NCBI GenBank assembly: GCA_964485515.1 | Contig: CAZALT010000004.1 | Location: 1 to 53,160 of the forward strand | From: an uncultured Rhabdothermincola sp. | Lineage (GTDB): Bacteria; Actinomycetota; Acidimicrobiia; Acidimicrobiales; Acidimicrobilacustridaceae | Length of the DNA: 53,160 nucleotides | Direction: 5' to 3' | Shown: piece by piece, positions 11,114 through 52,955 of the stretch | Numbering within the stretch: the first letter of the stretch is position 1 | Layout of the letters: each line of letters starts with the position of its first letter | The notes under the pieces: generated by a model | Database searches by the model: none | What the model was told of the DNA's origin: nothing | What the model saw: the letters and a program-made list of their open reading frames with translations, nothing else | Translations under genes and position numbers: made by a program

Positions 11114-11193
11114 TTCCGTCTTCGTGCTGATCGTCCTGGCCCCGGCACCCTTGAACCTCGGATCGGATCGGGGGAAGTGTCCTCTTGACTCAT

Positions 11194-11212
11194 GCAACCT
11201 ACGCAGTAGTAT
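11194..11212 (+). promoter_or_regulatory. Island operator/promoter motif, copy B (gCAACCTACgcaGTAGTAT) with -35 TTGACT at 11185-11190
   Basis: TTGACT-N16-TAGTAT geometry. 48 nt upstream of ATG 11260. Confidence 0.6.
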
Positions 11213-11259
11213 GTGACTATCGTCATCCGACCGATCAGGTTTTTCTAAGGGGGAACCGA

Positions 11260-12539: not shown

Positions 12540-12761
12540 ATGACCGTCGACACCCGCCTCCACCTCACCGTGGATCCCGATCTCTGCCAGGGACATGCCC
12601 GCTGCTACGCGCTGGCTCCGGAGCTGTTCGACATCGACGACGTCGACGGGCACTCCCAAGCCAAACCCGGTCCCGTGCCGGTCGAGCTCGAGGCCAAGGC
12701 CGAGCTCGCTGTCCGAAGCTGCCCGGAACGGGCGATCAGCCTCAGCGGAGGCGAACGATGA
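12540..12761 (+). CDS. 3Fe-4S ferredoxin (P450 redox partner type)
   Basis: 73 aa. CQGHARC...CP cluster motif (DPDLCQGHARCYALAPELF ... SCPERAI). Confidence 0.85.
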   Translation: MTVDTRLHLTVDPDLCQGHARCYALAPELFDIDDVDGHSQAKPGPVPVELEAKAELAVRSCPERAISLSGGER

Positions 12762-12780
12762 GTGGGGAGACCGCACAGCC

Positions 12781-25065: not shown

Positions 25066-25716
25066 CTACTTGGTCAGGCCGCCGACCACGAAGTTCGCCA
25101 TGGACTCGGCGATCTCCTGCTTGCGGGAGACGTCGCCGTCGACCCGCGGGTTGTACCAGACGCTCATCCAGTTGAGGGATCCGAGGACCGCCTTGGCGAG
25201 GATGCCGGCGTCGTTGCCCGCGAACTCGCCCGCCTCGATGCCCTGTGCGATGACGTCCTCGAAGCGCTCCTCGTAGTCGGCCCGCAGGGAGAAGACCTCG
25301 TCGATCTGCTCTTGGCGCGTGCGGCCCTCGCTCGCCAGGGTCATCTCCGCGTGCTGGACGGCGAGGCGCATGAAGCTGGTCTCGTTCATCATGAGCTCGG
25401 CGTGCGCCTCGGCCATAGCCCAGAGGCGCTCCCGGGGCGAGGCCGGTCCGCTGGTGTAGGGGGTCACGGCATCGATGGCGAGCTCGAGCGCGCGGCGATG
25501 GATGCCGACGAAGATCTCGCCCTTGGTGCGGAAGTAGTGGTACACCCGGCCCTTGGTGGCGCCGAGGCGGTCGGCGATGTCGTCGATGGAGGTTGCGGCG
25601 TAGCCACGCGTGGTGAACGCCTCGGCCGCGGCGGTGAGCACGGCGTTGCGGCCGGCCGACTGGCGGTCGGACAGGGCGGTTCGGGACTCAGAGTCGGTCT
25701 TGGCTGGGGGAACCAC
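25066..25716 (-). CDS. TetR/AcrR-family transcriptional regulator
   Basis: 216 aa, GTG start. HTH block ILTAAAEAFTTRGYAATSIDDIADRLGATKGRVYHYFRTKGEIF. Confidence 0.9.
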   Translation of the reverse strand: MVPPAKTDSESRTALSDRQSAGRNAVLTAAAEAFTTRGYAATSIDDIADRLGATKGRVYHYFRTKGEIFVGIHRRALELAIDAVTPYTSGPASPRERLWAMAEAHAELMMNETSFMRLAVQHAEMTLASEGRTRQEQIDEVFSLRADYEERFEDVIAQGIEAGEFAGNDAGILAKAVLGSLNWMSVWYNPRVDGDVSRKQEIAESMANFVVGGLTK

Positions 25717-34288: not shown

Positions 34289-34390
34289 CGTCTCACCGGC
34301 CGGTTGCCGTCGCGAACGGTGATCGGCCGTGGCCTGTTCGGCGTGGCCACGAGGGCTGGTGAAGAACTCGGCGGGTGTCTGGACATTCAA

Positions 34391-34409
34391 AGCACCTACT
34401 CAGTAGTAT
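34391..34409 (+). promoter_or_regulatory. Island operator/promoter motif, copy G (agcACCTACTcaGTAGTAT) with TGGACA at 34380-34385
   Basis: TGGACA-N18-TAGTAT. 49 nt upstream of ATG 34458. Confidence 0.6.
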
Positions 34410-34457
34410 GTGACCGACGACGCACAGGGGTGTGCCCGTCGTGAAGGGGAATCGCAC

Positions 34458-36023
34458 ATGGGGACGCCACCCAACTCACCTGGTCTGGCCACCGCACCTG
34501 ACCTCGCCCTCGATGCCCGGAGCGTCACCAAGGTCTTCGGAGCGTCCCGCGCCCTCGACCACGTCGACATCGGTGTCCGTCGGGGCGAGGTCCACGCGCT
34601 CGTCGGGCAGAACGGGTCCGGCAAGTCCACCTTCGTGAAGATCCTCGCCGGCTTCCACCGCCCCGACGGCGGGGAGGCGACGTTCCACGGCAAGCCCCTG
34701 TCGCTCGGCGACTCAGAAGCCGCCGCCAGCGCGGGCATCCGGTTCGTGCACCAGGACCTCGGTCTGGTCGACGACCTCAGCGTCGTCGAGAACGTGGCGC
34801 TCGGCGTCGGCTTCGACACGAAGATGGGTCGGATCTCCTGGCGATCGGAGACGGCGAACGCCGACCGCGCCATCCGAGAGCTCGGCTACCGATTCGACGT
34901 CCGCGGCGTCGTCGGGGACCTCACGCCATCGGAGCGAGTCGGGGTCGGCATCGCCCGGGCGCTGCGCGGCTGGGAGCAGGAGCGCGGAAACGGTCTCCTC
35001 GTGCTCGACGAGCCGACCGCATCCATGCCGGCCGATGAGGTCCGGCGCCTCTTCGAGGTCGTCCGCGGCGTGCGCGACAGCGGCACCTCGGTCATCTACG
35101 TCTCGCACCGGTTCGAAGAGGTCTTCGCACTCGCCGACTCCGTGACCGTCCTGCGCGACGGCAAGGTCGTCACCACCCGTCCGATGGAGGGCCTCGACCA
35201 CGACGGGCTCGTCGAGCTCCTCCTCGGCCGCCGACTCTCCCAGGAGATCCGCGAGCACCAGCCGCACAAGGTGGCCGAGTCGGCACCGGTGCTCGCCACC
35301 GACGGGCTCGGGCACGGAGCGATCGAAGAGCTCGACCTGGAGCTGCACGCCGGCGAGGTCGTCGGCATCGCGGGCGTCACCGGATCGGGCCGCGAGACGG
35401 TGGCGCAGCTGCTGTTCGGGGCGATCAGCCCCGAGCGCGGCCGCATCCTGATCGACGGCGAAGCGGTGTCGATGGACGGACCGGCGGATGCCGTCCGTCG
35501 GGGCATCGGTCTCGTCCCGCCCGAACGCCGCCAGCTCGCCTCCATCCCGAGCGGCGTGCGGGAGAACCTCACGCTCGTCGACCTCAAGCCGTTCTGGAGG
35601 CGCGGTCGGCTCCGCCCGAAGGCTGAGCGGGTGGAGGTCCAGACGTGGATCGACCGCTTCTCCATCTCGCCGCCAGACTCCGAGGCGCCGATCGAATCGC
35701 TCAGCGGTGGCAACCAGCAGAAGGTGCTCGTCGCCAAGTGGCTCCGGATCAAGCCGCGGGTGCTGATCCTCGACGAACCGACGCAGGGCGTCGACGTCGG
35801 CAGCAAGGCCGACATCCACGATCACCTGCGCGACGCGGCATCGGCGGGCATGGCCGTCGCCGTGTGCTCGACCGATCTCGAAGAGCTCGTCGCCGTGTGC
35901 GATCGGGTGGTCGTGATCGTCAACGGGCGGGTGTCGAACGAGCTCTCCGGCGGCGGGCTCGATGCAGATGTACTCGCCGAGGAGATCCTCGCCTCGGCTC
36001 CACGAACGGGAGTTTCCGCATGA
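34458..36023 (+). CDS. CUT2-type (ribose/xylose-like) ABC transporter ATP-binding protein, tandem ABC domains
   Basis: ORF 34410..36023 trimmed to ATG 34458 (SD GAAGGGGA). Walker A GQNGSGKST, Walker B LLVLDEPT. Second domain has GVTGSGRE, LSGGNQQKV, ILILDEPTQGVD. Confidence 0.9.
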   Translation: MGTPPNSPGLATAPDLALDARSVTKVFGASRALDHVDIGVRRGEVHALVGQNGSGKSTFVKILAGFHRPDGGEATFHGKPLSLGDSEAAASAGIRFVHQDLGLVDDLSVVENVALGVGFDTKMGRISWRSETANADRAIRELGYRFDVRGVVGDLTPSERVGVGIARALRGWEQERGNGLLVLDEPTASMPADEVRRLFEVVRGVRDSGTSVIYVSHRFEEVFALADSVTVLRDGKVVTTRPMEGLDHDGLVELLLGRRLSQEIREHQPHKVAESAPVLATDGLGHGAIEELDLELHAGEVVGIAGVTGSGRETVAQLLFGAISPERGRILIDGEAVSMDGPADAVRRGIGLVPPERRQLASIPSGVRENLTLVDLKPFWRRGRLRPKAERVEVQTWIDRFSISPPDSEAPIESLSGGNQQKVLVAKWLRIKPRVLILDEPTQGVDVGSKADIHDHLRDAASAGMAVAVCSTDLEELVAVCDRVVVIVNGRVSNELSGGGLDADVLAEEILASAPRTGVSA

Positions 36024-37087
36024 CCGACCTGGATCACGGCGTGGCCGCCACCACCCCGGACCAAGCCCCCGACGACCGACCTGCGGGTTCGGCGGGAGAC
36101 GGCCAAGCCGCGAAGCCGCGCCGCTCGATCATCCAGACGTTGCGCATCGAGCAGCTGTCGGGGCTCTACGTGCTGGCCCTGCTCATCGTGTTCTTCGGGA
36201 TCACCACCGGCGACACCTTCCTCACCATGGCGACGTTCCGTGGCGTGCTCAGCGACCAGGCCATCGTCGCCGTCGCGTCGATCGGCCTGCTGGTCGCCTT
36301 CGCGGCAGGGGCGTTCGACCTGTCGATCGGCGCCGTGCTCGGCTGGTCGCTGGTGCTGGTGATCTGGCTGCAGAGCGAGCAGTCCATGAACCCGTTCCTC
36401 GCCATCGTGGTGACGATCATCGTCGGGTCCTTGATCGGCATCGTGAACGGCTTGGTGGTCGTGTTCTTGAAGGTGAACTCGTTCATCGCCACGTTGGCGA
36501 TGAGCTCGATCCTCGCGGCGGGCATCCAGTGGATCTCCGGCGGTCGGCAGCTGTCATCGCAGGGTGTGACCTCGACCTTCACCGATCTGGGCCGCTTCAA
36601 GATCTTCGAGTTCCCGATCCCGATCGTCTACATGGTCGTCGTCGCGGTCATCGCCTGGTACGTGCTCGAGTACACGCCGGTGGGTCGCTACCTGTACGCC
36701 ACCGGTGGCAACGAGCAGGCCTCGCGTCTCGCCGGCATCCGGACCCAGCGCTACATCTTCGGGTCGCTCGCTGCCTCGGCGACGATCGCCTCGCTCGCCG
36801 GCGTCTTCTTCGCCGCCCGAGTGGGATCGGCATCGCTCACGGTGGGACCGACCTTCCTGCTGCCGGCGTTCGCCGCTGTCTTCCTCGGTTCGACGCAGAT
36901 CAAGCCGGGTCGGGTCAATGTCTGGGGCACGCTCGTGGCGATCTTCCTCCTCGCCACGGGCGTGAAGGGCCTGCAGTTGATGGGCGCGCCCTTCTGGGTG
37001 GACAGCCTGTTCAACGGCATCGTGCTCATCGCTGCCGTCGCCCTTGCCGGTCTCCGGGGCAAGGGCGACGTGAAGAGGTCGATCTGA
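36020..37087 (+). CDS. CUT2-type ABC transporter permease (RbsC/XylH-like)
   Basis: ORF 35645..37087 trimmed to ATG 36020 (ATGA overlap). About 9-10 hydrophobic segments. GRYLYATGGNEQASRLAGI motif typical of this permease family. Confidence 0.9.
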   Translation: MTDLDHGVAATTPDQAPDDRPAGSAGDGQAAKPRRSIIQTLRIEQLSGLYVLALLIVFFGITTGDTFLTMATFRGVLSDQAIVAVASIGLLVAFAAGAFDLSIGAVLGWSLVLVIWLQSEQSMNPFLAIVVTIIVGSLIGIVNGLVVVFLKVNSFIATLAMSSILAAGIQWISGGRQLSSQGVTSTFTDLGRFKIFEFPIPIVYMVVVAVIAWYVLEYTPVGRYLYATGGNEQASRLAGIRTQRYIFGSLAASATIASLAGVFFAARVGSASLTVGPTFLLPAFAAVFLGSTQIKPGRVNVWGTLVAIFLLATGVKGLQLMGAPFWVDSLFNGIVLIAAVALAGLRGKGDVKRSI

Positions 37088-37233
37088 GGATCCGACCCCG
37101 CCCCGCGGCCACCCAGCCGAGCAGCCGGCCCGGAACCGGGCCACGATGCCTGCGGGGATGTACCGCGACCGCAAGTCACTCGAGCGAGATCACACCGAAC
37201 GAACACCAACTCACCAAGAAAGGAAGTCGACGA

Positions 37234-37794
37234 ATGATGCTCGAAGGCGCCGACCACGAGCTCGAGGCGCTGCTCAACGACCGCGCCATCCGCACCGTGC
37301 TGAACCGCTATGTCCGGGGGGTCGACCGGCGGGACGAGGCGCTGCTGCGCTCCTGCTATCACCCCGACGCCATCGACAACCACGGCACCTTCGTCGGCGG
37401 CATCGACGAGTTCGCGGTCTTCCTGCGCGAGGAGCTGCCCAAGTACCGCACGACGATGCACCTCCTCGCGCAGTCGACCATCGAGTACCTCGACGACGCC
37501 CAGACCGTCGCCGCGGTCGAGACGTACTCCATCGCCGTGCACCGGCTCGAGCGCGGACCGCAGGGCAGCAACTGGCGTGCCGGGTTCCGCTACGTCGACC
37601 GCTTCGAGCGGCGCAACCTCGATGGGGCTCGCGACGAGACGTGGAAGATCGCCGACCGCACCGTGGTGGGCGAGTGGATGGACATCGACGACGTCGACCA
37701 GCAGCGTCGGTTCCCCAAGGAGTTCGTGATGGGCCTGCCCGATCACGCAGACCCGATCTACGCGGTGCGCGGCAGCACCGCCGTCGGCCTCTAG
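37234..37794 (+). CDS. SnoaL-like / NTF2-fold protein
   Basis: ORF 35962..37794 trimmed to ATG 37234 (SD AAAGGAAG). LEALLNDRAIRTVLNRYVRGVDRRDEALLRSCYHPDA is typical of the SnoaL_4 / NTF2 family. Confidence 0.75.
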   Translation: MMLEGADHELEALLNDRAIRTVLNRYVRGVDRRDEALLRSCYHPDAIDNHGTFVGGIDEFAVFLREELPKYRTTMHLLAQSTIEYLDDAQTVAAVETYSIAVHRLERGPQGSNWRAGFRYVDRFERRNLDGARDETWKIADRTVVGEWMDIDDVDQQRRFPKEFVMGLPDHADPIYAVRGSTAVGL

Positions 37795-37813
37795 GAACCG
37801 GGAGACGATCGAG

Positions 37814-38863
37814 ATGGCATCACGTCTGGAGTTCGGACTCGCCGGCCTCGCCGCGCAGGACCCGACGACCGACCGGCACGGCGCCAACGCCGCGCTGCGC
37901 ACCGTCGTCCGAGCGGCTCGCGTCGCGGACCAGCACGGCTTCGACGCCGTCTGGACCTCGGAGCACCACGGTGCGCCCGACGGCTTCATCCCCGCCCCGA
38001 TGGTCCTGCTCAGCGCGCTGTCCCAGGCGACCGAACGAGTTCGCCTCGGCACCAACGTGATCGTCGCTCCCGTGTGGGATCCGATCCGACTCGCCGAGGA
38101 GACGGCGATCGTCGACCAGCTGAGCGGCGGGCGCGTCGACCTCGGCCTGGGCATCGGGTACATGGAGCACGAGTTCCGCGCCCTCGGCGCGCCGTACAAG
38201 GAACGGGCTCGATCGTTGGAATTGTCGGTGGCGCTCCTGCGGTCGGCGTGGGCGGGTGAGCCGCTCTCGGGGCTCGGAACGATGGATGCCGACGAGGCCA
38301 TCCGCGTGACGCCGCAGCCCCTGCAGGTGCCCGGTCCGCCCATCCTGCTGGGCGGCTTCGTCCGGACGGCGGTGCTGCGGGCTCGACGGCTCGGCCAGGG
38401 CTACCTCGGCCCGACCGTCGATCCCTCCGGCCTTGCCGAACGCATCGGTTGGCTCCTCGAGGACGGGCCGCTGCCCGGGTTCAGCGTGTCGGTCACCGCG
38501 TTCGCGTTCGTGTCGGCTGACGGCCAGGCGCCGCCGTCTCCTCCCGGAGCGGGATCGACCGGCGGTCACAACTTCGCCGCGCCACGACCTGATGGCGCCG
38601 GCAGCGCGGTCAACGTCGTCGGCACGCCCGACGATGCGGTCCGAGCCTTGACGCCGTTCGTCGAGCTGTTCGCCACCGTGCCCGACGACATGCCGGCCCA
38701 CCTCTGCATGTGCCTCCTCCAACCGACGGCCTCGGAGGCGGACAACCTCGAATCCGTGCGGTTGTTCGGCGACGAAGTGATCCCCGCGCTGCGCGAGATC
38801 GCGGCCGCAGGCTCGTCGGACCCGTCGGACCCGTCGCCCCCAGCCGGGACGGCAGCGGCATGA
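37814..38863 (+). CDS. LLM-class flavin/F420-dependent oxidoreductase
   Basis: 349 aa. GFDAVWTSEHHG, GTNVIVAPVWDPIRLAEE, SGGRVDLGLGIGY. Confidence 0.85.
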   Translation: MASRLEFGLAGLAAQDPTTDRHGANAALRTVVRAARVADQHGFDAVWTSEHHGAPDGFIPAPMVLLSALSQATERVRLGTNVIVAPVWDPIRLAEETAIVDQLSGGRVDLGLGIGYMEHEFRALGAPYKERARSLELSVALLRSAWAGEPLSGLGTMDADEAIRVTPQPLQVPGPPILLGGFVRTAVLRARRLGQGYLGPTVDPSGLAERIGWLLEDGPLPGFSVSVTAFAFVSADGQAPPSPPGAGSTGGHNFAAPRPDGAGSAVNVVGTPDDAVRALTPFVELFATVPDDMPAHLCMCLLQPTASEADNLESVRLFGDEVIPALREIAAAGSSDPSDPSPPAGTAAA

Positions 38864-40050
38864 CGGACGAGATCCTCGGACACCGGGACCGCTGTGCCAT
38901 CGCGGGCATCGGCACGACCGACTACTCGAAGGCGTCGGCCCGTTCCGAGCTGACGCTCGCCACGCAGGCCTCGCTCGCCGCACTCGACGACGCTGGGTTG
39001 ACGGCGGCCGACATCGACGGGGTCGTGCGCTGCGACCTCGACCGGGTGGCCCCCAACGACCTCGCCCACTCGCTCGGCATCCCGAACCTCACCTACTGGG
39101 GGACGACCACAACCGGCGGCGGTGCCCCCTGTGGCATGGTCGGCCAGGCCATCGGCGCGATCCTCTCCGGTCAGGCCACCGCGGTGATCGTGTACCGGGC
39201 GCTCAACGGGCGATCCGGTCAGCGCTACGGCCGGGGCGAGATCTCCGATGTGCCCGTCGGCGGCGGCGGGACCTACGACGAGTTCTTCGTGCCCTACGGC
39301 CTGGTTGCACCCGGGCAGATGTGGGCGATGCTCGCCCAGCGTCACGCCCACGAGTTCGGCACGACCGCCGAGCAGCTCGGTGCCGTCGCGCTGGCCTGCC
39401 GCACGCAGGCCAACCACAACCCCGGGGCGATGATGCACGATCGCCCGCTCGACCTGGAGACCTACCTCGCGTCGCGGATGATCTCGGCGCCGCTCCGGCT
39501 GTTCGACTACTGCCTCGAGACCGACGGCGCGTGTGCGGTCATCGTCACCACCGCGGAGCGAGCCCGCGACCTGCGCCAGCCCCCCGCGCTCATCCGAGGG
39601 GTCGCGCAGGGCATCCCCGCCGATCCGCAGGGCGGCGTCACCTACCCGTCGCTGATGCGCGAGAGCCTCACGTCTCTGCCATCGGCCGCGGTCGCCAAGA
39701 CGCTCTACGCCCGTGCCGGTGTCGGCCCAGAGGACATCGACACCGCGCAGTTCTACGACTGCTTCACGCCGACCGTGATCTTCCAGCTCGAGGACTACGG
39801 GTTCTGTGCGAAGGGGGAGGGCGGTCCCTTCGCGGCGAGCGGCGCCATCGACCGGGGCGGTTCGCTGCCCGTCAACACCAGTGGAGGCAACATGTCCGAC
39901 GGCTACATCCACGGCCTCAACCACGTCGTCGAAGGCGTGCGTCAGATCCGCGGCACCTCGACCGGGCAGGTGCCCGACGCCGAGACGTGCCTGGTCACCT
40001 CCGGCCTGCCCCTCCCGTCCAGCGCCCTGATCCTGCGAGGCGATCGCTGA
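38860..40050 (+). CDS. Thiolase-like protein, SCP-x / lipid-transfer (Ltp) type
   Basis: ORF 38710..40050 trimmed to ATG 38860 (ATGA overlap). IAGIGTTDYSK, FYDCFTPTVIFQLEDYGFCAKGEG, NTSGGNMSDGYIHGLNHVVEGVRQIRG. Confidence 0.85.
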   Translation: MTDEILGHRDRCAIAGIGTTDYSKASARSELTLATQASLAALDDAGLTAADIDGVVRCDLDRVAPNDLAHSLGIPNLTYWGTTTTGGGAPCGMVGQAIGAILSGQATAVIVYRALNGRSGQRYGRGEISDVPVGGGGTYDEFFVPYGLVAPGQMWAMLAQRHAHEFGTTAEQLGAVALACRTQANHNPGAMMHDRPLDLETYLASRMISAPLRLFDYCLETDGACAVIVTTAERARDLRQPPALIRGVAQGIPADPQGGVTYPSLMRESLTSLPSAAVAKTLYARAGVGPEDIDTAQFYDCFTPTVIFQLEDYGFCAKGEGGPFAASGAIDRGGSLPVNTSGGNMSDGYIHGLNHVVEGVRQIRGTSTGQVPDAETCLVTSGLPLPSSALILRGDR

Positions 40051-40451
40051 TGGCCGGCAGCGCGCCGATCCCCGTCATCGACGATGCGGACACCGGGGGC
40101 TTCTTCGCTGGGGCCGCCGCCCACGAGGTGCGGCTGTCCTTCTGCGCCGACTGCGACGCCGTGCTCCACCTGCCCACGGCGTACTGCCACCGCTGCGGCA
40201 GCTGGTCGACCGAGTGGCGGGCGGTGGCACCGACCGGAACGCTCTTCACGTTCACGATCATCGAGCACCAGGTGCATCCCGCGTTCCCGGCACCGCACGC
40301 CATCGTGCTCATCAGCCTCGATGAGGTTCCCGACGCTCGCCTGCTCGGTCACGTCGCCGGTCGCCCCGATCTCACGATCGGCATGGCGATGGAGGCGTAC
40401 TTCGAATCGCACGGTTCTGCGACCGTCCCCAACTGGCGGCCGCGATCGTGA
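40050..40451 (+). CDS. DUF35 OB-fold / zinc-ribbon protein (thiolase partner)
   Basis: ORF 39321..40451 trimmed to ATG 40050 (1-nt overlap). Zn ribbon CADCDAVLHLPTAYCHRCGS followed by an OB-like segment GTLFTFTIIEHQ. Confidence 0.85.
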   Translation: MAGSAPIPVIDDADTGGFFAGAAAHEVRLSFCADCDAVLHLPTAYCHRCGSWSTEWRAVAPTGTLFTFTIIEHQVHPAFPAPHAIVLISLDEVPDARLLGHVAGRPDLTIGMAMEAYFESHGSATVPNWRPRS

Positions 40452-40494
40452 CGACCCGAACTGCACGAGGACGACGACGAGCAAGGAGCGCACC

Positions 40495-41745
40495 ATGACC
40501 GATGGATCGTCGACCGCTGATCCCCGCGGTGCCGTCGGCGTGCTCGCCGGCATCCGCGTGGTCGAGGTGTCGCACTTCGCCTATGTGCCCTCGGCCTGCG
40601 CCGTGCTCGCCGACTGGGGCGCCGACGTCGTGAAGATCGAGAACCCCGCGACCGGCGACCCGATGCGGGGCGGCATGATCGGTGGCATCCCGCCGGGCTT
40701 CGGCGGGCTCACCTTCATGTGGGAGCTCACCAACCGCAACAAGCGGTCGGTCGGCCTCGACCTCAGCAGCGAGCAGGGCCGCGAGCTGCTGATGCAGCTC
40801 GTCGAGGGTGCCGACGTGTTCGTCACCAGCTTCCTCCCGGGTGTGCGCGCCAAGCTGCGCATCGGGGAGTCCCACATCCGAGCCGTGAACCCGACGATCG
40901 TCTACGCCGCCGGAACCGGCCAGGGCGCCCGCGGCGACGAGGCCGACCAGGGCGGCTTCGACCAGACCTCGTATTGGTACCGCTCGGGCGTGGCCTCGGC
41001 GCTGGTCGAGGAGGGAGAGTGGCCCCCCGACCTGCCCGGCGCCGGCTTCGGTGACGTCACCAGCGGCCTGGTGCTCGCGGGTGGGATCTCCGCCGCGCTG
41101 CTGCACCGCGAGCGCACCGGCGAAGGCATCGCCGTCGACGGCTCGCTGCTCGCGACGGGCATGTGGGCGATGGGTCCGAGCCTCGCCGCGACCGGCCTGA
41201 CCGGGAAGGAGGAGTTCCGCTTCCCGGGGAGGACCGAGACGACCAACCCGCTGGTCAACGCCTACCGGACCTCCGACGGTCGCTTCATCGGACTGTGCGT
41301 GCTGCGGTCCGACGCCTATTGGGTCGAGCTCTGCGAAGCCCTCGGCCATCCCGAGATCGGCGCCGACGAGCGCTTCTCCGACGCCGAGCTGCGTGCCACC
41401 AACGGCGCGGCGTGCGTGGCCGCGCTCGACGCCGCGTTCGCCGAAGGCACGCTTGCCCACTGGGTCGAGCGGTTGTCGACGCAGGGCGGACCGTGGGCGA
41501 TCGTGCAGCGCAGCGACGAGCTCCGACGCGACCCGCAGGTCGAAGCCAACGGCTACCTCCAGACGGTGGACTACGGCGACGGTCGGACGATCGACCTCGT
41601 CCCGTCGCCGATCCAGTTCGGCGGCGCCGCCCCCACCCTCTCGCCGGCACCCGAGGTGGGCGCCGACACCGAGGAGGTCCTGCTCGAGCTCGGCCTCGAC
41701 TGGGACGCCCTCATCGAGCTGAAGGTCCAACAGGTCATCAGCTGA
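40495..41745 (+). CDS. Family III CoA-transferase (CaiB/BaiF family)
   Basis: ORF 40084..41745 trimmed to ATG 40495 (SD AAGGAG). LAGIRVVEVSHFAYVPSACAVLADWGADVVKIE, NRNKRSVGLDL, catalytic-Asp region GFDQTSYW (approximate assignment). Confidence 0.9.
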   Translation: MTDGSSTADPRGAVGVLAGIRVVEVSHFAYVPSACAVLADWGADVVKIENPATGDPMRGGMIGGIPPGFGGLTFMWELTNRNKRSVGLDLSSEQGRELLMQLVEGADVFVTSFLPGVRAKLRIGESHIRAVNPTIVYAAGTGQGARGDEADQGGFDQTSYWYRSGVASALVEEGEWPPDLPGAGFGDVTSGLVLAGGISAALLHRERTGEGIAVDGSLLATGMWAMGPSLAATGLTGKEEFRFPGRTETTNPLVNAYRTSDGRFIGLCVLRSDAYWVELCEALGHPEIGADERFSDAELRATNGAACVAALDAAFAEGTLAHWVERLSTQGGPWAIVQRSDELRRDPQVEANGYLQTVDYGDGRTIDLVPSPIQFGGAAPTLSPAPEVGADTEEVLLELGLDWDALIELKVQQVIS

Positions 41746-41907
41746 GCGAGCGGTCGCTCGCCATCCGAACCCCGGCTGATCCGTCAGCCCGCGCCACCGC
41801 GTGACCCGCCTCGGCCCGCGGGCCGATGCACGGTCGCGCCCCAGCACCGGACCGAACGCGCACGCACCCCCCCCCTCAACCACCAGCACATGTAGGAGCA
41901 CACGAAC

Positions 41908-42684
41908 ATGGACATCAACGGCATCTCGGCCATCGTCACCGGCGGAGCATCGGGCATCGGCGAAGCCTGCGCCCGGGCCCTGGCCGCCCGCGGCGCCAAG
42001 GTCCTCATCGCCGACCTGCAGGAAGACCGCGGCAAAGCGCTGGCCGACGAGATCGGTGGGGCGTTCGCCCGCGCCGACGTGACCGACACCGCCGACGTCA
42101 TCGCCGCCGTCGACGCCGCCGCGGAGATGGGTCCACTGCGGGCGCTCGTGAACTCCGCCGGCATCGGGATCCCGGCCCGGACGATCGGGCGCGACGGCAG
42201 CTACGACTCGGCGTTGCCGCTCGACCAGTGGCGCAAGGTGCTCGACATCAACCTCACGGGGACCTTCGACTTCATCCGCATCGCCGCCACCGCGATGAGT
42301 CGGACCGAGCCGCTCGAGGACGGCGAGCGCGGTGCCATCGTCAACATGGCGTCGATCGCCGCGTTCGACGGCCAGATCGGCCAGGCGTCCTACTCGGCGA
42401 CCAAGGGCGCGATCGTCGGCATGACACTGCCGATCGCCCGCGACCTCTCGGCCATCGGGGTGCGGGTGAACACCGTGGCCCCCGGTCTGATCGACACGCC
42501 GATCTACGGCGAGGGCCCCGAGTCGGATGCGTTCAAGGCGAACCTCGAGAAGGACGTGCTGTTCCCCAAGCGCCTCGGGTTCAGCTCCGAGCTGGCGAGC
42601 ATGGCCATCGAGCTGATCGCCAACTCGTACATGAACGCGCAGACGATCCGCGTCGATGCCGGCACCCGCCTCGGCCCGCGCTGA
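41908..42684 (+). CDS. 3-hydroxyacyl-CoA dehydrogenase type II-like SDR
   Basis: 258 aa. [36 protein letters not shown]. Paralog of 21604..22362. Confidence 0.9.
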
Positions 42685-42690
42685 CCCTCG

Positions 42691-42797
42691 TCAGCCGGCG
42701 GTCGTGATCATCGGCGGTCGTGCTCAGTCGGCGGTCGTGCTCATCGGCGGTCGTGCTCAGTCGGCGGTCGTGCTCATCGGCGGTCGTGCTCAGTCGG
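42691..42797. repeat. Tandem repeat, 33-bp period (17+16-bp subunits) x 3.2
   Basis: tcagNcggcggtcgtgc / tcatcggcggtcgtgc alternate from 42691. The last partial unit contains the stop codon (42790-42792) of the minus-strand gene 42790..43095. Confidence 0.9.
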
Positions 42798-43095: not shown

Positions 43096-43155
43096 CTGGG
43101 GATGCTCCTGGGAAGGTAGGCCTGCGAGGGGACCAGTCGGGTCTTGCCGAGAGGC

Positions 43156-43174
43156 ATACTACCTAGTAGGTTGA
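43156..43174 (-). promoter_or_regulatory. Island operator/promoter motif, copy H (perfect; plus-strand ATACTACctAGTAGGTTGA)
   Basis: Minus-strand reading is TTGCGT(43183-43178)-N16-TAGTAT(43161-43156). Sits between the divergent small gene (start 43095) and the P450 (start 43253). Confidence 0.6.
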
Positions 43175-46490: not shown

Positions 46491-47660
<1,170 letters not shown>

Positions 47661-47700
47661 GGGGAAGGCCTCACTTCAGGGGAGCGACTGGTGACGCGAG

Positions 47701-47719
47701 ATACTACCCAGTAGGTTGT
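47701..47719 (-). promoter_or_regulatory. Island operator/promoter motif, copy I (plus-strand ATACTACccAGTAGGTTGt)
   Basis: One mismatch. Minus-strand TAGTAT lies 41 nt upstream of the thiolase ATG 47660. The racemase gene is divergent. Confidence 0.6.
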
Positions 47720-48928: not shown

Positions 48929-48947
48929 GGAACCTACTACTGAGTAT
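48929..48947 (+). promoter_or_regulatory. Island operator motif, copy J1 (weaker; ggAACCTACTacTGAGTAT)
   Basis: Left half perfect, right half 5 of 7. It abuts the -35 TTGACA of the J2 promoter. Confidence 0.4.
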
Positions 48948-48957
48948 CTTGACATCA

Positions 48958-48976
48958 GGTCCGTACTGGGTAGTAT
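48958..48976 (+). promoter_or_regulatory. Island operator/promoter motif, copy J2 (ggtCCgTACTggGTAGTAT) with -35 TTGACA at 48949-48954
   Basis: TTGACA-N16-TAGTAT. About 297 nt upstream of ATG 49273. Confidence 0.6.
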
Positions 48977-49272
48977 GTGTCGTACCGCACATGGACGTGC
49001 GGGAGTGGCAGATCTGAGACCCGCACGGGCCGGAGCTGGCAAGTCCGAGTGATGAAACGTCTCTCCGGATCACCCAGCACGGCACCTCCAAGTTGCGCCT
49101 CGCATCCAGCCAACTTCCGGAGGGGCGTCCCTGCCTGACGGCGCTACCACGCGCCCTCGAGCTGGCGGTGTCCAGGGACTCGCGCGCCAAGACGGTGCGC
49201 GCCCCGGGCGAGTTCGGAGCCGCCGGTCAAATCGACCGGCGGGCAAACAGCGATAGGGAGGGGATCCCGCAC

Positions 49273-50478
49273 ATGAAGCGAGCTAGGACGTCGGTTCCGA
49301 AGGGACTGGCATTGATCGCCGTCGGAGCGTTGCTCTTCGGGGCGGCCGCGTGTTCGAGTGACGACAGTTCGTCGTCGAGCGACACCTCAGCGAGCAGTGG
49401 ATCGGCGAGCGGAGGCCTGACCGAAGCCAAGGCGAACGTCGACCGCCTCTTGCAGGCGCCCACGACCGTCGGTGTCACGACACCCATCAAGGAGGCTGCC
49501 CCCGCCGATGTCTCGGTGGCGTTCCTCGAGTGCCCGATTCCGGACTGCGCCGCCTTCAGCGGTGGCGCGGAAGATGCCGCAGCCGAGCTCGGCTGGGACT
49601 TCACGAGCATCAACTACGACCTCACGCCGGAGAGCTCGCAGGCCGCGTTCGACCAGGCCCTGGCCGGCGGAGCGAACGTGATCCTGAGCGTCGGCTCGGA
49701 TCCGTCCTGGCTCACCGAGCAGCGCAAGGTCGCCGACGAGCAGGGCGTCGTGTTCGTCGACTGCTGCACGCTCTACGAGTCCGATGCCGCCACCGCGACG
49801 GGGGACTACCTCACCGCCGAGAACCCGCCGGCCGCGGTCATCAACAACGTCGACTTCATCCAGCACGAGGCGTCGACGATCGCCGACTACGCGGCGGTGG
49901 AGACCGACGGCAAGGTGAAGGGCCTCACCATCTACGTCCCCGACTTCCCCATCGGGGGAGTCACTGCCGATGCGATCGACAAGCGGCTCGCCGAGGTGTG
50001 CCCCGACAGCTGCTCGAGCGAGCCGTTGGAGGTGTCGGTCAACGACCTCGGCACCAACGTCGGCCCCCGGGTCGTGAGCGCACTGCAGCGCGACCCGTCG
50101 ATCAACTACCTCTTCTTCATCACCGGCGACTTCGCCGGTGGCGTCACCCCCTCGCTCGTCGAGGCAGGGATGGCCGACCAGGTGAAGATGGTCGGCAACA
50201 GCGGCAACCTCACGACGTTCGAAGAGATGGCTGCCGGCGACGTCGAGCAGGCCTGGTTGGGCGTGCCTCTCGAGGTCGAGGGCTGGCGCATGGTCGACAT
50301 GGCGCTGCGCACGCTCCAAGGCGAGGCGATCCCGCCGACCTCGTCGCCGGAGGACACCGGCATCGGGGCGTGGCCGACCTTCCAGATTCTCACCGCCGAG
50401 AACTACCCCGACCCGGAGCCGTACCTGGCGCCGGCGAACTTCCGGGACATCTTCAAGGAGCTGTGGCTCCTCAACTGA
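49273..50478 (+). CDS. ABC transporter substrate-binding lipoprotein, PBP type 1 (sugar/CUT2-like), paralog 2
   Basis: ORF 49093..50478 trimmed to ATG 49273 (SD AGGGAGGGG). Signal plus lipobox GAAACSS. Colinear with 11260..12450, including CPIPDC and CPDSC Cys pairs and a C-terminal ...FKELWLLN versus ...FLELWGIN. Confidence 0.85.
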   Translation: MKRARTSVPKGLALIAVGALLFGAAACSSDDSSSSSDTSASSGSASGGLTEAKANVDRLLQAPTTVGVTTPIKEAAPADVSVAFLECPIPDCAAFSGGAEDAAAELGWDFTSINYDLTPESSQAAFDQALAGGANVILSVGSDPSWLTEQRKVADEQGVVFVDCCTLYESDAATATGDYLTAENPPAAVINNVDFIQHEASTIADYAAVETDGKVKGLTIYVPDFPIGGVTADAIDKRLAEVCPDSCSSEPLEVSVNDLGTNVGPRVVSALQRDPSINYLFFITGDFAGGVTPSLVEAGMADQVKMVGNSGNLTTFEEMAAGDVEQAWLGVPLEVEGWRMVDMALRTLQGEAIPPTSSPEDTGIGAWPTFQILTAENYPDPEPYLAPANFRDIFKELWLLN

Positions 50479-50618
50479 CCACAGAACTGCGGGGCCCGGG
50501 GCGGTGATGTCCCCGACCCTGCAGGACCTCGACCGAACCGCACGAACGAACGAACGCCGGAGCCGGGTCGAACCCAGCGTCGGTGACCCAGGCGCTGAGC
50601 AACCGAAGGGAACAAGAC

Positions 50619-51572
50619 ATGAGCATCACGGAAGAAGATCGGCAGCAGGCCGTCGACCTCAACTCGAACGAGGTGTTCGACGAGGGTGGGCGTGCCATCG
50701 ACACAGGAGTTCTCAACGAGGTCCTCGACGAGGTGCGCAGACTCGACCTCGAGCAGAACATCTGGGAGCTCGACACGGTCGGCTACACAGTGGTTCCTCC
50801 TGAGAAGGTACAGCCGCCCGAGTTCATCGACCGTCTCGTGGAGGCCGGCCTCCAGCAGGCGGAGAAGCGCCTCGGCTCTCGCCCGCAGCTCGAAGCCGGG
50901 TTCGAGGCCGGAAGTGTCGGGCAGGAGGCAAGCGAGGCGTCGGCGTTCGGCGCGGGCCTTCCGGCATGCCTGCTCGAAGACCGGGTGCTCGAAGAAGCCA
51001 TCCTGACGCCTGCTTCGCTGGCGATCGCCGACTACCTGCTGTCGAAGCGCTGCGTGATCGACTCCGTCGAGTACTTCATCAAGGGCACCGGCACCCCGAA
51101 GCTGGGGATCCACGTCGACCAGTTCTCGCCGCAGCCGTTCCCGCCGTACGCGCAGATCGTCAACATCACGTGGGCGCTGACCGACTACTTCGAAGAGGCG
51201 GGGCCCACGGCGTTCGTGCCAGGCAGCCACAAGCTGTGCCGGTTCCCCGCCGCCTACACCGGCGAGGGAGTCGACCAGCTGGTGCCGGTGACGGCGAAGA
51301 AGGGCTCGCTGATCGTGTGGCACGGCAACACCTGGCACGCCGCACTCCCGCGGACGGCGCCTGGCCTGCGCATGAGCCTCATCACGACCTACCGCCGCTC
51401 GTACCTCCAGACCACCGAGGGGTACCGCGGTCGGGTCCCGCAGGAGATCTACGACCGCAACCCCGAACGGTTCCGCCACCTCATCGGCGACGACCTCGGC
51501 TGGGCCCGCGATCCGTACACCGAGGACTACAACTCGGCCGAGTTCATCAACGCCGCCACCCGGCTCTTCTGA
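50619..51572 (+). CDS. Phytanoyl-CoA dioxygenase (PhyH) family Fe(II)/2-oxoglutarate oxygenase
   Basis: ORF 50583..51572 trimmed to ATG 50619 (AAGGGA 8 nt upstream). HVD facial-triad element (LGIHVDQF), distal His in LIVWHGNTWHAALPR. Confidence 0.8.
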   Translation: MSITEEDRQQAVDLNSNEVFDEGGRAIDTGVLNEVLDEVRRLDLEQNIWELDTVGYTVVPPEKVQPPEFIDRLVEAGLQQAEKRLGSRPQLEAGFEAGSVGQEASEASAFGAGLPACLLEDRVLEEAILTPASLAIADYLLSKRCVIDSVEYFIKGTGTPKLGIHVDQFSPQPFPPYAQIVNITWALTDYFEEAGPTAFVPGSHKLCRFPAAYTGEGVDQLVPVTAKKGSLIVWHGNTWHAALPRTAPGLRMSLITTYRRSYLQTTEGYRGRVPQEIYDRNPERFRHLIGDDLGWARDPYTEDYNSAEFINAATRLF

Positions 51573-51614
51573 GCGGCCAGGACGCACGTCCTCCCAGGTT
51601 TCCCCTGGGGTCCG

Positions 51615-51648
51615 GCCGCCCCGGCGACACCTTCGTCGTCGGGGCGGC
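51615..51648 (+). terminator. Terminator-like hairpin (14-bp stem with one G.U, 6-nt loop)
   Basis: gccgccccggcgac-accttc-gtcgtcggggcggc, 43 nt after the PhyH stop. No U-tract. Confidence 0.4.
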
Positions 51649-51741
51649 TCGACCTCTGGTTCGCACGGCGGTTGGCGGCGTCGATCGGTCGACCTCGCCA
51701 TCTACTCATCCAAGACGACAGCACGCGGAAAGAGGCAACAC

Positions 51742-52500
51742 ATGACACTCGACGGGAAGATCGCGATCGTGACCGGGGCCGGCATGGGCATCGGTCGGGG
51801 CGTGGCCATCGCCTTGGCGAAGGTGGGTGCCGACGTCGCCGTGCTCGAGGCCGATGCGGACAACGCGAAGGCGACGGGGGCGGAGATCGAGGACATCGGC
51901 CGCCGATCGCTCGTCGCGAACGTCGACGTGAGCGATGGCACAGCATGCGATGCCGCGGTGCAGCAGGTAGTCGAGGAGCTGGGCGGCGTCGACATCCTGG
52001 TCAACGACGCGGTGCCGCCGTGGGAGCACACACCGTTCGTCGACCAAGACGAAGCCATCATCCGACGACACTTCGAGGTCGGGGTGATGGGCGCGTTCTA
52101 CCTGATGCGTGCGGTGCATCCGAAGATGGTCGATCGCGGCGGCGGATCCATCATCAACTTCGGATCGTGGGCGGGGGCCGAGGGGCTCCCCGGCTATGCC
52201 GGCTATGGAGCGGCGAAGGAGGGCATCCGGGCACTCACGAAGTGCGCGGCCATGGAGTGGGGCGTCGACGGCATCCGGGTCAACAACATCTGCCCGTGGG
52301 CGAACTCCGACGGGGCGCGGCGCTTCCTCGAGGAGAACCCGGAGGGCTACGCGGAGCAGCTCCAACGAGTGCCGATGCACCGGATCGGCGACTGCGAGCT
52401 GGACATCGGTCGGACGGTGGTCTTCCTGGCGAGCGATGCCAGCAGCTACATGACGGCGAACACGCTCATGGTCGCGGGTGGCCAGGGTGCCGTGCGGTGA
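51742..52500 (+). CDS. SDR-family oxidoreductase
   Basis: 252 aa, SD GGAAAGAGG. VTGAGMGIGRG, NDAV, YGAAKEGIRA. Confidence 0.9.
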   Translation: MTLDGKIAIVTGAGMGIGRGVAIALAKVGADVAVLEADADNAKATGAEIEDIGRRSLVANVDVSDGTACDAAVQQVVEELGGVDILVNDAVPPWEHTPFVDQDEAIIRRHFEVGVMGAFYLMRAVHPKMVDRGGGSIINFGSWAGAEGLPGYAGYGAAKEGIRALTKCAAMEWGVDGIRVNNICPWANSDGARRFLEENPEGYAEQLQRVPMHRIGDCELDIGRTVVFLASDASSYMTANTLMVAGGQGAVR

Positions 52501-52955
52501 TCGACCACGCCTCGCTCGTCGAGCTGGCGCGCATCCAGCAGGTCCAGCTCACGTACGCCCTGGCGTTCGACACGAAGGACCTCGATGGCGTGCTCGGGGT
52601 GTTCGCCGACGACGCCGCCTGGGTCTCGCCCTACTCGGGGGAGCGCCAGGGGGCCGACGCGCTGGCCGAGATGTTCCGCAGCTCGTTCGCAGCGGTCGGC
52701 TCGTGCGCCCACGTCGTGGGCGCATCCCTGCTTACCGCCTTTGACGGCGACCGCGCTCGGTGCACGACCTACTTCCAGTCTGAGGTCGTGTACGACGGCG
52801 AGCCAACCACGCTGTGCTCCGACGTCGGGTACTACGAGGACGAGCTCGTCCGTTCGTCGGTCAGGTGGCGGATCACCCGTCGTGGCGTGCGCCTCCTGCT
52901 GCCGAGTCGCAAGGCCGAGTTCGCCCGCATGGAACTGCCCGACGCGTCGGGCTGA
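52497..52955 (+). CDS. SnoaL-like / NTF2-fold protein
   Basis: ORF 51672..52955 trimmed to GTG 52497 (GTGA overlap with the SDR stop). LVELARIQQVQLTYALAFDTKDLDGVLGVFADDAAW is typical of the NTF2/SnoaL_4 family. Confidence 0.7.
   Translation: MIDHASLVELARIQQVQLTYALAFDTKDLDGVLGVFADDAAWVSPYSGERQGADALAEMFRSSFAAVGSCAHVVGASLLTAFDGDRARCTTYFQSEVVYDGEPTTLCSDVGYYEDELVRSSVRWRITRRGVRLLLPSRKAEFARMELPDASG

What the first reader, a model, noticed from the sequence alone, without database searches (positions are those of the whole stretch)
34458..37087. Carbohydrate-type (CUT2) ABC importer with no adjacent binding protein; two paralogous lipoprotein SBPs head separate oxygenase operons elsewhere in the island
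The tandem-ABC ATPase (34458..36023) and single RbsC-like permease (36020..37087) form a classic CUT2 core. No SBP gene is next to them.

The only matching PBP1-type SBPs are at 11260..12450 and 49273..50478. They are clear paralogs, colinear from the lipobox to the C-terminal ...LW..N. Both carry two conserved Cys pairs (CP[VI]P[ED]C and CPD[TS]C).

Each SBP is the first gene of its own motif-controlled operon encoding an oxygenase, a P450/ferredoxin in one case and a PhyH dioxygenase in the other. All three loci carry the same operator.

The inference is that one permease/ATPase core is shared by two substrate-specific SBPs, each co-expressed with the first oxidative enzyme for its substrate. 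No Mce-type lipid or steroid uptake genes are present in this otherwise lipid- or steroid-like island. Use of a sugar-family transporter for what appear to be hydrophobic acid substrates would be unusual.
Basis: inference. Interest (0 to 1): 0.62.

Follow-up and report, generated by a model that had tools for sequence, protein, structure and literature searches.

The report
Split ABC importer: one core, two binding proteins
One sugar-type ABC import engine, with no binding-protein gene beside it, most likely serves two related binding lipoproteins whose genes each lead an oxygenase operon, and the whole transporter subfamily looks adapted to non-sugar, oil-like nutrients.

Summary
34458-36023 is a two-cassette CUT2-type ATPase and 36020-37087 a single RbsC-like permease, with no binding-protein (SBP) gene or remnant beside them. 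11260-12450 and 49273-50478 are 49%-identical Peripla_BP_4 lipoproteins with two conserved Cys pairs. One precedes ferredoxin and P450; the other precedes a PhyH dioxygenase.

The shared-core reading is supported but not proven:
- These are the only CUT2 core and only CUT2 SBPs in the 83.5%-complete genome.
- In most of the ~66 other actinobacterial loci examined, homologues of the SBP, ATPase and permease are adjacent.
- The SBP and permease trees agree. The window's permease is sister to permeases whose neighbouring SBPs are sister to the window's SBPs.
- All three promoters carry an 18-bp operator found only on this contig.

SBP1 and SBP2 fall in a strongly supported "orphan" clade of six. 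The other four also lack an adjacent core, and each has a P450 within two genes.

The residues that bind ribose in RbsB-type proteins are replaced by small or aliphatic ones, in these SBPs and family-wide. Flanking genes across the family are oxygenases, TetR regulators and acyl-CoA enzymes, never sugar kinases, isomerases or LacI-type regulators. The ligands remain unknown.

Verdict: a new variant of a known kind, moderately interesting.

The parts
34380..34411 (+). Promoter (TGGACA-18-TAGTAT) overlapped by an exact operator copy (34394-34411), upstream of the ATPase
34458..36023 (+). Tandem-NBD CUT2-type ABC ATPase (521 aa): one consensus and one degenerate ATP site
36020..37087 (+). Single RbsC-like permease (355 aa, BPD_transp_2). 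Its start overlaps the ATPase stop. Presumed to act as a homodimer.
37234..42684 (+). Rest of the probable nine-gene core operon: SnoaL_4, luciferase-like monooxygenase, Ltp2-like thiolase, ChsH2/DUF35 OB-fold protein, family III CoA-transferase, SDR. No second consensus promoter and no terminator-like site in 34200-43300.
11185..11214 (+). Promoter (TTGACT-16-TAGTAT) overlapped by an operator copy (11197-11214, 1 mismatch), upstream of SBP1
11260..12450 (+). SBP1: lipoprotein (Cys22) of PBP1/Peripla_BP_4 fold, with Cys pairs C81/C86 and C237/C241. AlphaFold model has pLDDT 92.6.
12540..14082 (+). Ferredoxin (12540-12761) and P450 (12781-14082, closest solved structures CYP125 ancestor, P450cin, CYP126), directly after SBP1
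48932..48978 (+). Promoter (TTGACA-16-TAGTAT, 48949-48976), flanked by an operator copy on the minus strand (48932-48949) and overlapped by a weaker copy (48961-48978, 4 mismatches). It lies about 296 nt before the SBP2 start.
49273..50478 (+). SBP2: paralogous lipoprotein (Cys27), 49% identical to SBP1, differing from it at 8 of 9 predicted pocket positions
50583..52955 (+). PhyH-family Fe/2OG dioxygenase (50583-51572), SDR (51742-52500) and SnoaL_4 protein (52497-52955), downstream of SBP2
25066..25716 (-). The only regulator found among the window genes scanned (TetR family), so the presumed binder of the shared operator. Genes 1-7 and 20-25 of my calls were not scanned.
   Evidence: exact operator copy at 25964-25981 in its divergent region
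43154..43171 (-). Further operator copy (3 mismatches), in the gap before the second P450 (43253-44521)
47699..47716 (-). Further operator copy (3 mismatches), between the divergent thiolase (46491-47660, minus strand) and CoA-transferase III (47718-48917)

Best explanation
This is a split, three-locus ABC importer belonging to one repressor-controlled catabolic regulon.

Proposed mechanism:
1. A TetR-type repressor (inferred) binds the 18-bp operator that overlaps the -10 hexamer of three promoters. An unidentified ligand relieves repression.
2. The promoters then express (a) the tandem ATPase and single permease, (b) SBP1 with ferredoxin and P450, and (c) SBP2 with the PhyH dioxygenase.
3. 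SBP1 and SBP2 are exported and lipid-anchored on the outer face of the membrane. Each is probably stabilised by two disulfides.
4. Each SBP captures its own related but distinct, weakly polar non-sugar ligand. The ligands are probably alicyclic, isoprenoid or steroid-like.
5. Both SBPs dock on the same RbsC-like permease dimer, which is driven by the one ATPase.
6. In the cytoplasm, the oxygenase encoded next to each SBP carries out the first oxidation. SDRs, CoA ligases or transferases and beta-oxidation-like enzymes of the island follow.

What is shown: the gene identities, the paralogy, the shared operator and promoters, the cognate relationship of the SBP and core families, and the loss of the sugar-binding residues.

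What is inferred: physical sharing of the core, the identity of the repressor, the ligand class, and the order of the enzymatic steps.
For: 1. Uniqueness in the genome. The genome has 9 BPD_transp_2 matches, but only the window's sits next to a tandem ATPase of this type. The others are Urt/HAAT-type with two small ATPases. The two extra Peripla_BP_4 matches are LacI regulators with HTH N-termini.

2. Cognate families. In 5 same-order loci, 2 named MAG loci, 9 class-level loci and most of the 63 actinobacterial permease-homologue loci, an SBP of this family lies next to a tandem ATPase (38-55% identical) and one permease (40-56% identical). The exceptions are mostly short contigs.

3. Co-phylogeny. 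In the SBP tree, {SBP1, P0004, SBP2, P0005-7} (100/99) is sister (100/100) to {P0008, L024, P0009, P0010}; L024 and P0009 are core-adjacent and follow a luciferase-like monooxygenase gene. In the permease tree, the window's permease groups (100/98) with the L024 and L025/L041 permeases.

4. Co-regulation. All 6 operator copies in the 3.85-Mb assembly are on this contig. They overlap the -10 of the core, SBP1 and SBP2 promoters.

5. Precedent inside the family for two SBPs with one core. L042 has ATPase, permease, SBP and SBP in a row. P0033 is a tandem SBP fusion.

6. Distinct specificities. Nine positions align with the ribose ligands of tteRBP (2ioy).
- SBP1: E85, C86, A159, N160, V223, I253, S278, A304, L325.
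- SBP2: D91, C92, C165, T166, G229, L259, T284, S310, V331.
- The two paralogues differ at 8 of 9. SBP1 and its 88% orthologue agree at 9 of 9.

7. Non-sugar ligand.
- None of D89, R90, R141, N190, D215 or Q235 is kept.
- SBP-P450 linkage recurs in four independent contigs.
- Both P450s are nearest to CYP125/P450cin-type hydroxylases; CYP126 and CYP124 also match the SBP1-linked one, and CYP142 and CYP153 the other.
- Family-wide immediate neighbours are Rieske, catechol and extradiol dioxygenases, OYE-type reductases, PNPOx-like and SnoaL proteins, TetR regulators, and Ltp2/DUF35. No sugar kinase, isomerase or LacI-type regulator was found among about 40 flanking genes scanned.
Against: - The assembly is 83.5% complete, in 348 contigs with 5% contamination. 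A second CUT2 core in the missing part cannot be excluded.
- There are no RNA runs for this organism, so co-expression is inferred from the operators alone.
- The pocket mapping rests on a profile alignment at about 15% identity. Model coordinates could not be inspected, so pocket shape and polarity were not measured.
- The contigs of the other orphan-clade members are short (3.4-9 kb). A core a few kb away is possible there.
- Some family members are flanked only by SDR, GMC or GSDH-type dehydrogenases. That is also compatible with polyols, so 'non-sugar' may not hold for every branch.
- The TetR-operator pairing is untested.
Confidence: 0.68

Rival explanations
1. Each SBP, or one of them, has its own dedicated CUT2 ATPase and permease encoded in the unassembled ~16% of the genome. 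In that case the window's core serves a third, unseen SBP or just one of the two.
For: The genome is only 83.5% complete and is split into 348 contigs. Most family members elsewhere have a one-to-one adjacent arrangement.
Against: - tblastn finds no paralogue of the permease or of the SBPs on any other contig.
- All operator copies are on this contig.
- The permease and SBP trees are congruent for exactly this core and these SBPs.
- About 3.8 kb beyond the right end of the window, seen in other assemblies, holds Amidohydro_2, ADC and TetR genes and no transporter.
Confidence: 0.15
2. The SBPs bind ordinary sugars or polyols. Their position at the head of oxygenase operons would then be incidental or only regulatory, and the system would be a normal carbohydrate importer.
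For: - The fold, and the ATPase and permease, are unmistakably CUT2. Database names call relatives 'ribose/sugar ABC substrate-binding protein'.
- SDR, GMC and GSDH neighbours occur in some family loci.
Against: - All aligned sugar-ligand positions are replaced by small or aliphatic residues.
- No carbohydrate-catabolic gene was found in the scanned part of the 53-kb island, about 43 of 53 called genes.
- SBP-P450 synteny is conserved across four independent contigs, in one case with overlapping stop and start codons.
- Family regulators are TetR, not LacI, ROK or DeoR.
Confidence: 0.1
3. SBP1 and SBP2 no longer feed a transporter. Instead they act as extracytoplasmic ligand receptors for a membrane sensor, like ChvE, LuxP or XylFII, or as substrate-capturing or sequestering lipoproteins.
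For: - PBP1-type proteins do serve as co-sensors; XylFII is among the fold matches.
- The 88% orthologue P0004 lies downstream of a DUF4118 + SpoIIE membrane protein.
Against: - No sensor kinase or membrane receptor was found among the scanned window genes; the only regulator found is a cytoplasmic TetR.
- An otherwise SBP-less, intact, co-regulated core is present.
- The DUF4118/SpoIIE neighbour is not conserved in the window or in the other clade members.
Confidence: 0.07

Closest known systems
CUT2 family ABC importers (TC 3.A.1.2), e.g. E. coli RbsABC
   Same: - Single-polypeptide tandem ATPase with one degenerate site.
- One RbsC-like BPD_transp_2 permease gene.
- PBP1/Peripla_BP_4 binding protein. 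Foldseek TM-scores (target-normalised) to ribose- and other sugar-binding proteins are 0.74-0.87.
   Different: - The SBP genes are not in the transporter operon.
- The SBPs are about 100 residues longer, with an N-terminal helix, a 159-186 loop insertion and a C-terminal extension ending in LW. They have two Cys pairs and are 12-19% identical to solved sugar SBPs.
- None of the ribose-ligand residues is conserved.
- All NCBIfam equivalog cut-offs are missed by a wide margin.
- The genomic context is oxygenases and acyl-CoA catabolism, not sugar catabolism.
Multi-receptor ABC importers such as HisJ/ArgT-HisQMP2 and LivJ/LivK-LivHMGF (from general knowledge)
   Same: Two paralogous binding proteins of different specificity are inferred to use one translocator.
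   Different: - In the classical cases at least one SBP gene sits in or beside the transporter operon, and sharing has been shown genetically and biochemically.
- Here both SBP genes lie 13-22 kb from the core, and each heads an operon for the first oxidative enzyme. Sharing is only inferred.
Rhodococcus sp. AH-ZY2 4497-4498-4499 (SBP, NBD, TMD), classed as CUT2 and implicated in phthalate-ester uptake (PMC13188901, 2026)
   Same: An actinobacterial CUT2-classified system with one SBP, one NBD gene and one TMD gene, induced by a hydrophobic non-sugar substrate. Knocking out the SBP impaired growth on and removal of that substrate.
   Different: - That system has the three genes in one cluster.
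- Its evidence comes from knockouts and docking, not from binding assays.
Mce4 / CamABCD steroid uptake systems of Actinobacteria (PMC8399759)
   Same: ATP-driven uptake systems encoded within steroid or lipid catabolic gene clusters of Actinobacteria.
   Different: - No MlaD/Mce domain occurs anywhere in this genome, so this is not an Mce system.
- The transporter family of CamABCD could not be checked because the paper is not held.

Membership tests
CUT2 ABC importer (TC 3.A.1.2) | Two ABC cassettes fused in one ATPase polypeptide of about 500 aa | tested here: met
   Two ABC_tran domains in 521 aa. Best NCBIfam matches are YtfR, AraG, XylG and RbsA over the full length. Walker and signature motifs are as in CUT2.
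CUT2 ABC importer (TC 3.A.1.2) | RbsC-type BPD_transp_2 permease with about 10 transmembrane segments | tested here: met
   PF02653 at E 6e-38. Best NCBIfam matches are RbsC, GguB and AraH. A crude hydropathy scan gives about 9-10 hydrophobic segments.
CUT2 ABC importer (TC 3.A.1.2) | Binding protein with PBP type I (cluster B) fold | tested here: met
   Both SBPs score above the PF13407 cut-off. The AlphaFold model (pLDDT 92.6) matches ribose- and glucose-binding proteins at Foldseek E ~1e-15.
CUT2 ABC importer (TC 3.A.1.2) | Binding-protein gene encoded with the translocator genes | tested here: not met
   There is no SBP gene or remnant near 34458-37087. The SBP genes are at 11260 and 49273.
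Ribose/monosaccharide-binding proteins (RbsB type) | Polar ligand network equivalent to D89, R90, R141, N190, D215 and Q235, with stacking F15, F16 and F164 | tested here: not met
   The profile alignment to 2ioy gives A159, N160, V223, S278, A304 and L325, with E85, C86 and I253 at the stacking positions. SBP2 is similar, and the family consensus is also small or aliphatic. This is alignment-based, not structure-based.
Multi-SBP ABC importer sharing one translocator | At least two paralogous SBPs and only one compatible translocator in the genome | tested here: met
   with the caveat that the genome is 83.5% complete.
Multi-SBP ABC importer sharing one translocator | Both SBPs shown to deliver substrate to the same translocator | not testable with these tools
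   Only indirect support is available: co-phylogeny, the shared operator and two SBP genes beside one core in L042.
Mce lipid/steroid transporter | MlaD/Mce substrate-binding domain proteins together with YrbE permeases | tested here: not met
   PF02470 has no match in the whole assembly.

The most novel reading that the evidence does not exclude
A large, uncharacterised, mainly actinobacterial offshoot of the CUT2 'sugar' importers has lost the sugar-ligand residues. It now serves as the general SBP-dependent uptake route for aromatic, alicyclic, terpenoid or steroid-like catabolic substrates.

In one clade the binding protein has become a detachable specificity cassette. It is inherited together with the first oxygenase (P450 or Fe/2OG dioxygenase) of each pathway, and several such cassettes plug into a single translocator.
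Probability: 0.4. Interest if true: 0.72.

Novelty: new variant of a known kind. Interest (0 to 1): 0.55.

Why it matters
How Actinobacteria without Mce systems take up bulky, poorly soluble carbon sources is largely unknown. Annotation pipelines label this whole subfamily 'ribose/sugar ABC transporter'.

If the reading is right:
- More than a thousand sequence clusters are mis-annotated.
- The subfamily would mark hydrophobic or aromatic substrate uptake in soil and aquatic Actinomycetota.
- The SBP-oxygenase gene pairs would give a direct handle for finding the substrates of orphan P450s. The partner SBP can be purified, its ligand identified, and that ligand then tested on the enzyme.
- It would show a modular way to widen the substrate range of one importer.

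Tried and rejected
The permease alignment worked instead.
- The word-index search suggested a rare family of 29 hits. The exhaustive HMM search corrected this to thousands.
- The two extra Peripla_BP_4 genome matches were checked as possible third SBPs and rejected. They are LacI regulators.
- The other four BPD_transp_2 systems were checked as alternative cores and rejected. They are Urt/HAAT type and have their own SBPs.
- Model coordinates are not exposed to scripts, so no pocket volume or hydrophobicity could be computed. A profile alignment to 2ioy was used instead.
- No RNA runs exist for this organism, so co-expression could not be tested.
- Rfam found nothing in the window, including the 296-nt SBP2 leader.
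- The CamABCD paper is not held, and literature searches for CUT2 non-sugar substrates returned only the 2026 Rhodococcus paper.
- The 17 Rhodobacterales loci returned with the permease scan form a separate deep branch with weak SBP-HMM scores (94-109 bits). They were left out of the family statistics.
Full report
**Setting.** The window is a whole 53,160-bp contig (C4) with about 70% G+C. It comes from a 3.85-Mb draft genome in 348 contigs, 83.5% complete and 5% contaminated. The closest named relatives of its transporter genes are Acidimicrobiia and Ilumatobacteraceae MAGs, so the organism is probably an Acidimicrobiia-class actinobacterium. That assignment is an inference. I called 53 genes with a codon-usage model trained on the genome. 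I annotated about 43 of them with Pfam or NCBIfam. The scanned genes encode acyl-CoA dehydrogenase pairs, enoyl-CoA hydratases, thiolases, an Ltp2/DUF35 pair, CoA-transferases, SDRs, two P450-ferredoxin pairs, a PhyH dioxygenase, luciferase-like monooxygenases, SnoaL-like proteins and one TetR regulator. No carbohydrate-catabolic gene was seen among them.

- 34458-36023 encodes a 521-aa protein with two ABC cassettes. 36020-37087 encodes a 355-aa BPD_transp_2 permease whose start overlaps the ATPase stop.
- NCBIfam ranks the CUT2 ATPases (YtfR, AraG, XylG, RbsA) and permeases (RbsC, GguB, AraH) first, but every score is far below the equivalog cut-off.
- The ATPase has the CUT2 asymmetry. NBD1 has a consensus Walker A; NBD2 has a degenerate Walker A (GVTGSGRE) and the LSGGN signature.
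- 11260-12450 (SBP1) and 49273-50478 (SBP2) are Peripla_BP_4 proteins with lipoboxes. They are 49% identical and colinear to the C-terminal LW motif. Both carry CP[VI]P[ED]C and CPD[TS]C.
- tblastn finds no further copy or remnant of either SBP, and no paralogue of the permease, anywhere in the assembly.

**Regulation.**
- The 18-mer ACCTACTCAGTAGTATGT occurs six times at <=3 mismatches in the window, against 0 expected.
- It occurs nowhere else in the 3.85-Mb assembly.
- Each of the three transporter loci has exactly one sigma70-like promoter. In each, the TAGTAT -10 hexamer lies inside an operator copy: 34380-34409, 11185-11212 and 48949-48976.
- No terminator-like site and no second consensus promoter lies between 34200 and 43300. 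The ATPase and permease therefore probably head a nine-gene operon running into SnoaL_4, LLM, Ltp2, DUF35, CoA-transferase III and SDR genes.
- The only regulator found among the scanned genes is the TetR at 25066-25716, whose divergent region holds an exact operator copy. That it binds the operator is an inference.

**Is the core the partner of these SBPs?** Four lines of evidence say yes.
1. *Uniqueness.* The genome's other BPD_transp_2 systems (C187, C5, C2, C43) are Urt/HAAT type, with two small ATPases and their own large SBPs. The two other Peripla_BP_4 matches (C159, C2) begin with LacI-type HTH motifs.
2. *Synteny elsewhere.* SBP homologues lie next to a tandem ATPase and one permease in same-order genomes (L019-L023), named MAGs (L024, L025) and class-level hits (L026-L034). 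The ATPases are 41-49% identical to the window's and the permeases 42-56%. A permease-based scan returned 80 loci. Most of the 63 actinobacterial ones carry an adjacent SBP scoring 150-640 bits on the family HMM, plus the ATPase. The exceptions are mostly short contigs.
3. *Co-phylogeny.* In the SBP tree, SBP1, SBP2 and four metagenomic proteins form a clade (100/99). Its sister (100/100) contains the SBPs of L024 and L015/P0009, which are core-adjacent and linked to a luciferase-like monooxygenase gene. In the permease tree, the window's permease groups (100/98) with the permeases of L024 and L025/L041. The larger clades of the two trees also match, so SBP and permease evolve as a unit.
4. 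*Precedent in the family.* L042 has two SBP genes after one ATPase-permease pair. P0033 is a tandem fusion of two SBPs.

**The orphan arrangement is inherited, not accidental.** None of the members of the SBP1/SBP2 clade with known context has an ATPase or permease next to it:
- P0004 (88% identical to SBP1): SBP, ferredoxin, P450.
- P0006: SBP then P450 with overlapping stop and start codons, then an SDR.
- P0007: SnoaL_4, SBP, P450, Amidohydro_2.
- P0005: P450, SDR, SBP.

The contigs are short (3.4-9 kb), which is a caveat. SBP2 has no closer relative than 52%. Other assemblies of the same organism confirm the order SBP2, PhyH, SDR, SnoaL_4. They also show Amidohydro_2, ADC and TetR genes, and no transporter, beyond the end of the window.

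**What do the SBPs bind?**
- The AlphaFold model of SBP1 is confident (pLDDT 92.6). It matches only CUT2 sugar-binding proteins, at 12-19% identity.
- A 140-sequence profile aligns to the Thermoanaerobacter ribose-binding protein 2ioy at E 7e-22. Posterior probabilities are high around R141, N190, D215 and Q235.
- The ribose ligands are known from the RbsB literature (my own knowledge). Reading off their columns gives, for F15, F16, D89, R90, R141, F164, N190, D215 and Q235 in turn:
  - SBP1: E85, C86, A159, N160, V223, I253, S278, A304, L325.
  - SBP2: D91, C92, C165, T166, G229, L259, T284, S310, V331.
- The family-wide majority residues at these columns are also small or aliphatic. The hydrogen-bonding set for sugar hydroxyls is therefore gone.
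- The first Cys pair sits in the beta1-alpha1 loop that contributes N13, F15 and F16 in RbsB.
- The two paralogues differ at 8 of 9 of these positions. SBP1 and its 88% orthologue agree at all nine. That fits two different but chemically related ligands.
- I could not inspect coordinates, so this mapping is alignment-based.

**Context points the same way.**
- Both P450s are closest to a CYP125 ancestor and to P450cin. CYP126 and CYP124 also rank among the matches of the SBP1-linked P450, and CYP142 and CYP153 among those of the second one. These are terminal hydroxylases of steroid, terpenoid and alkyl chains.
- The PhyH protein's weak nearest structures are meroterpenoid dioxygenases.
- The exhaustive search finds 1558 50%-identity clusters at E<=1e-30, so the family is large.
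- Across it, genes immediately flanking the three-gene unit include:
  - Rieske oxygenase alpha subunits, a catechol dioxygenase and glyoxalase-fold dioxygenases;
  - OYE-type reductases and PNPOx-like proteins (eight loci);
  - SnoaL-like proteins, TetR regulators and Ltp2/DUF35 pairs;
  - an AMP-ligase, a 3-hydroxyacyl-CoA dehydrogenase, Amidohydro_2 proteins and esterases.
- I found no sugar kinase, isomerase or LacI/ROK/DeoR regulator among about 40 flanking genes scanned.
- A few loci have only SDR, GMC or GSDH neighbours, which would also fit polyols.
- The genome has no Mce system at all.

**Comparison with what is known.** The parts are CUT2 by every structural criterion except operon organisation and the ligand residues. 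Sharing one translocator between paralogous SBPs is a classical theme (HisJ/ArgT, LivJ/LivK). The only report I found of a CUT2-classified system for a hydrophobic non-sugar is the 2026 Rhodococcus AH-ZY2 phthalate-ester study (PMC13188901). Its sequences I could not compare. The new elements here are:
- both SBP genes detached from the core, each placed at the head of the operon for the first oxygenase, in a conserved clade;
- the comparative evidence that the whole subfamily is tied to oxidative catabolism of non-sugars.

**Verdict.** The shared-core interpretation is well supported but unproven. I put about 0.68 on the full explanation and somewhat more on the core-SBP pairing alone. 'Hydrophobic acid' as the imported form is not supported. 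An acidic residue lies at a predicted pocket position, and the P450, SDR and ligase order suggests the acid is made inside the cell. This is a new variant of a known kind of system, of moderate interest. It offers a clear experimental handle: ligand screening of two soluble lipoproteins.

Noticed in passing
window 48979-49272: The SBP2 promoter lies about 296 nt upstream of the start codon. This leader folds somewhat better than shuffled controls (z = -2.47) and has no Rfam match. SBP1 and the ATPase have leaders of only about 45 nt.
   Followed up: partly
L120:5256-8161 (other assemblies of the same organism, beyond the right end of the window): Past the SnoaL_4 gene lie three minus-strand genes: Amidohydro_2, an acetoacetate-decarboxylase-family (ADC) gene and a second TetR gene. 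The island, and possibly its regulation, therefore extends beyond the contig.
   Followed up: no
L042 (Kineosporiaceae MAG); P0033: L042 has two tandem SBP genes after one ATPase-permease pair. P0033 is a 736-aa protein made of two fused SBP domains. Multi-SBP arrangements therefore recur in this family.
   Followed up: partly
L084:9040-9561 and 7 similar loci (L068, L072, L078, L079, L083, L088, L094): A small PNPOx-like (split-barrel flavin/F420) protein gene directly flanks the three-gene transporter unit in eight loci (downstream of the permease in L084). Its function there is unknown.
   Followed up: no
window 37234-37794 and 52497-52955; L016, L019, L023, L024, L043, L046, L055, L058: SnoaL/NTF2-like genes lie directly next to the transporter or SBP genes in the window and in at least eight other loci. 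This is a recurrent, unexplained partner, possibly an isomerase, a hydrolase or an intracellular ligand carrier.
   Followed up: partly
L096-L119 subset (Tateyamaria, Roseobacter and other Rhodobacterales): Seventeen marine Rhodobacterales loci carry a deep-branching relative. Most show the order ATPase, permease, weak-scoring SBP (94-109 bits), then a second ATPase and permease. They probably form a different subfamily.
   Followed up: no
G000 contigs C159 and C2: The genome's only other Peripla_BP_4 matches are LacI-type regulators. Apart from the window's core, the organism appears to have no CUT2 sugar importer at all. C159 carries a CUT1-like set instead (a 432-aa SBP and two permeases).
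   Followed up: partly
window 43154-43171 and 47699-47716 (minus strand): Two weaker operator copies lie in front of the second P450-ferredoxin operon and in the thiolase / CoA-transferase III divergent region. The regulon therefore covers at least six promoters on this contig and none elsewhere in the assembly.
   Followed up: partly
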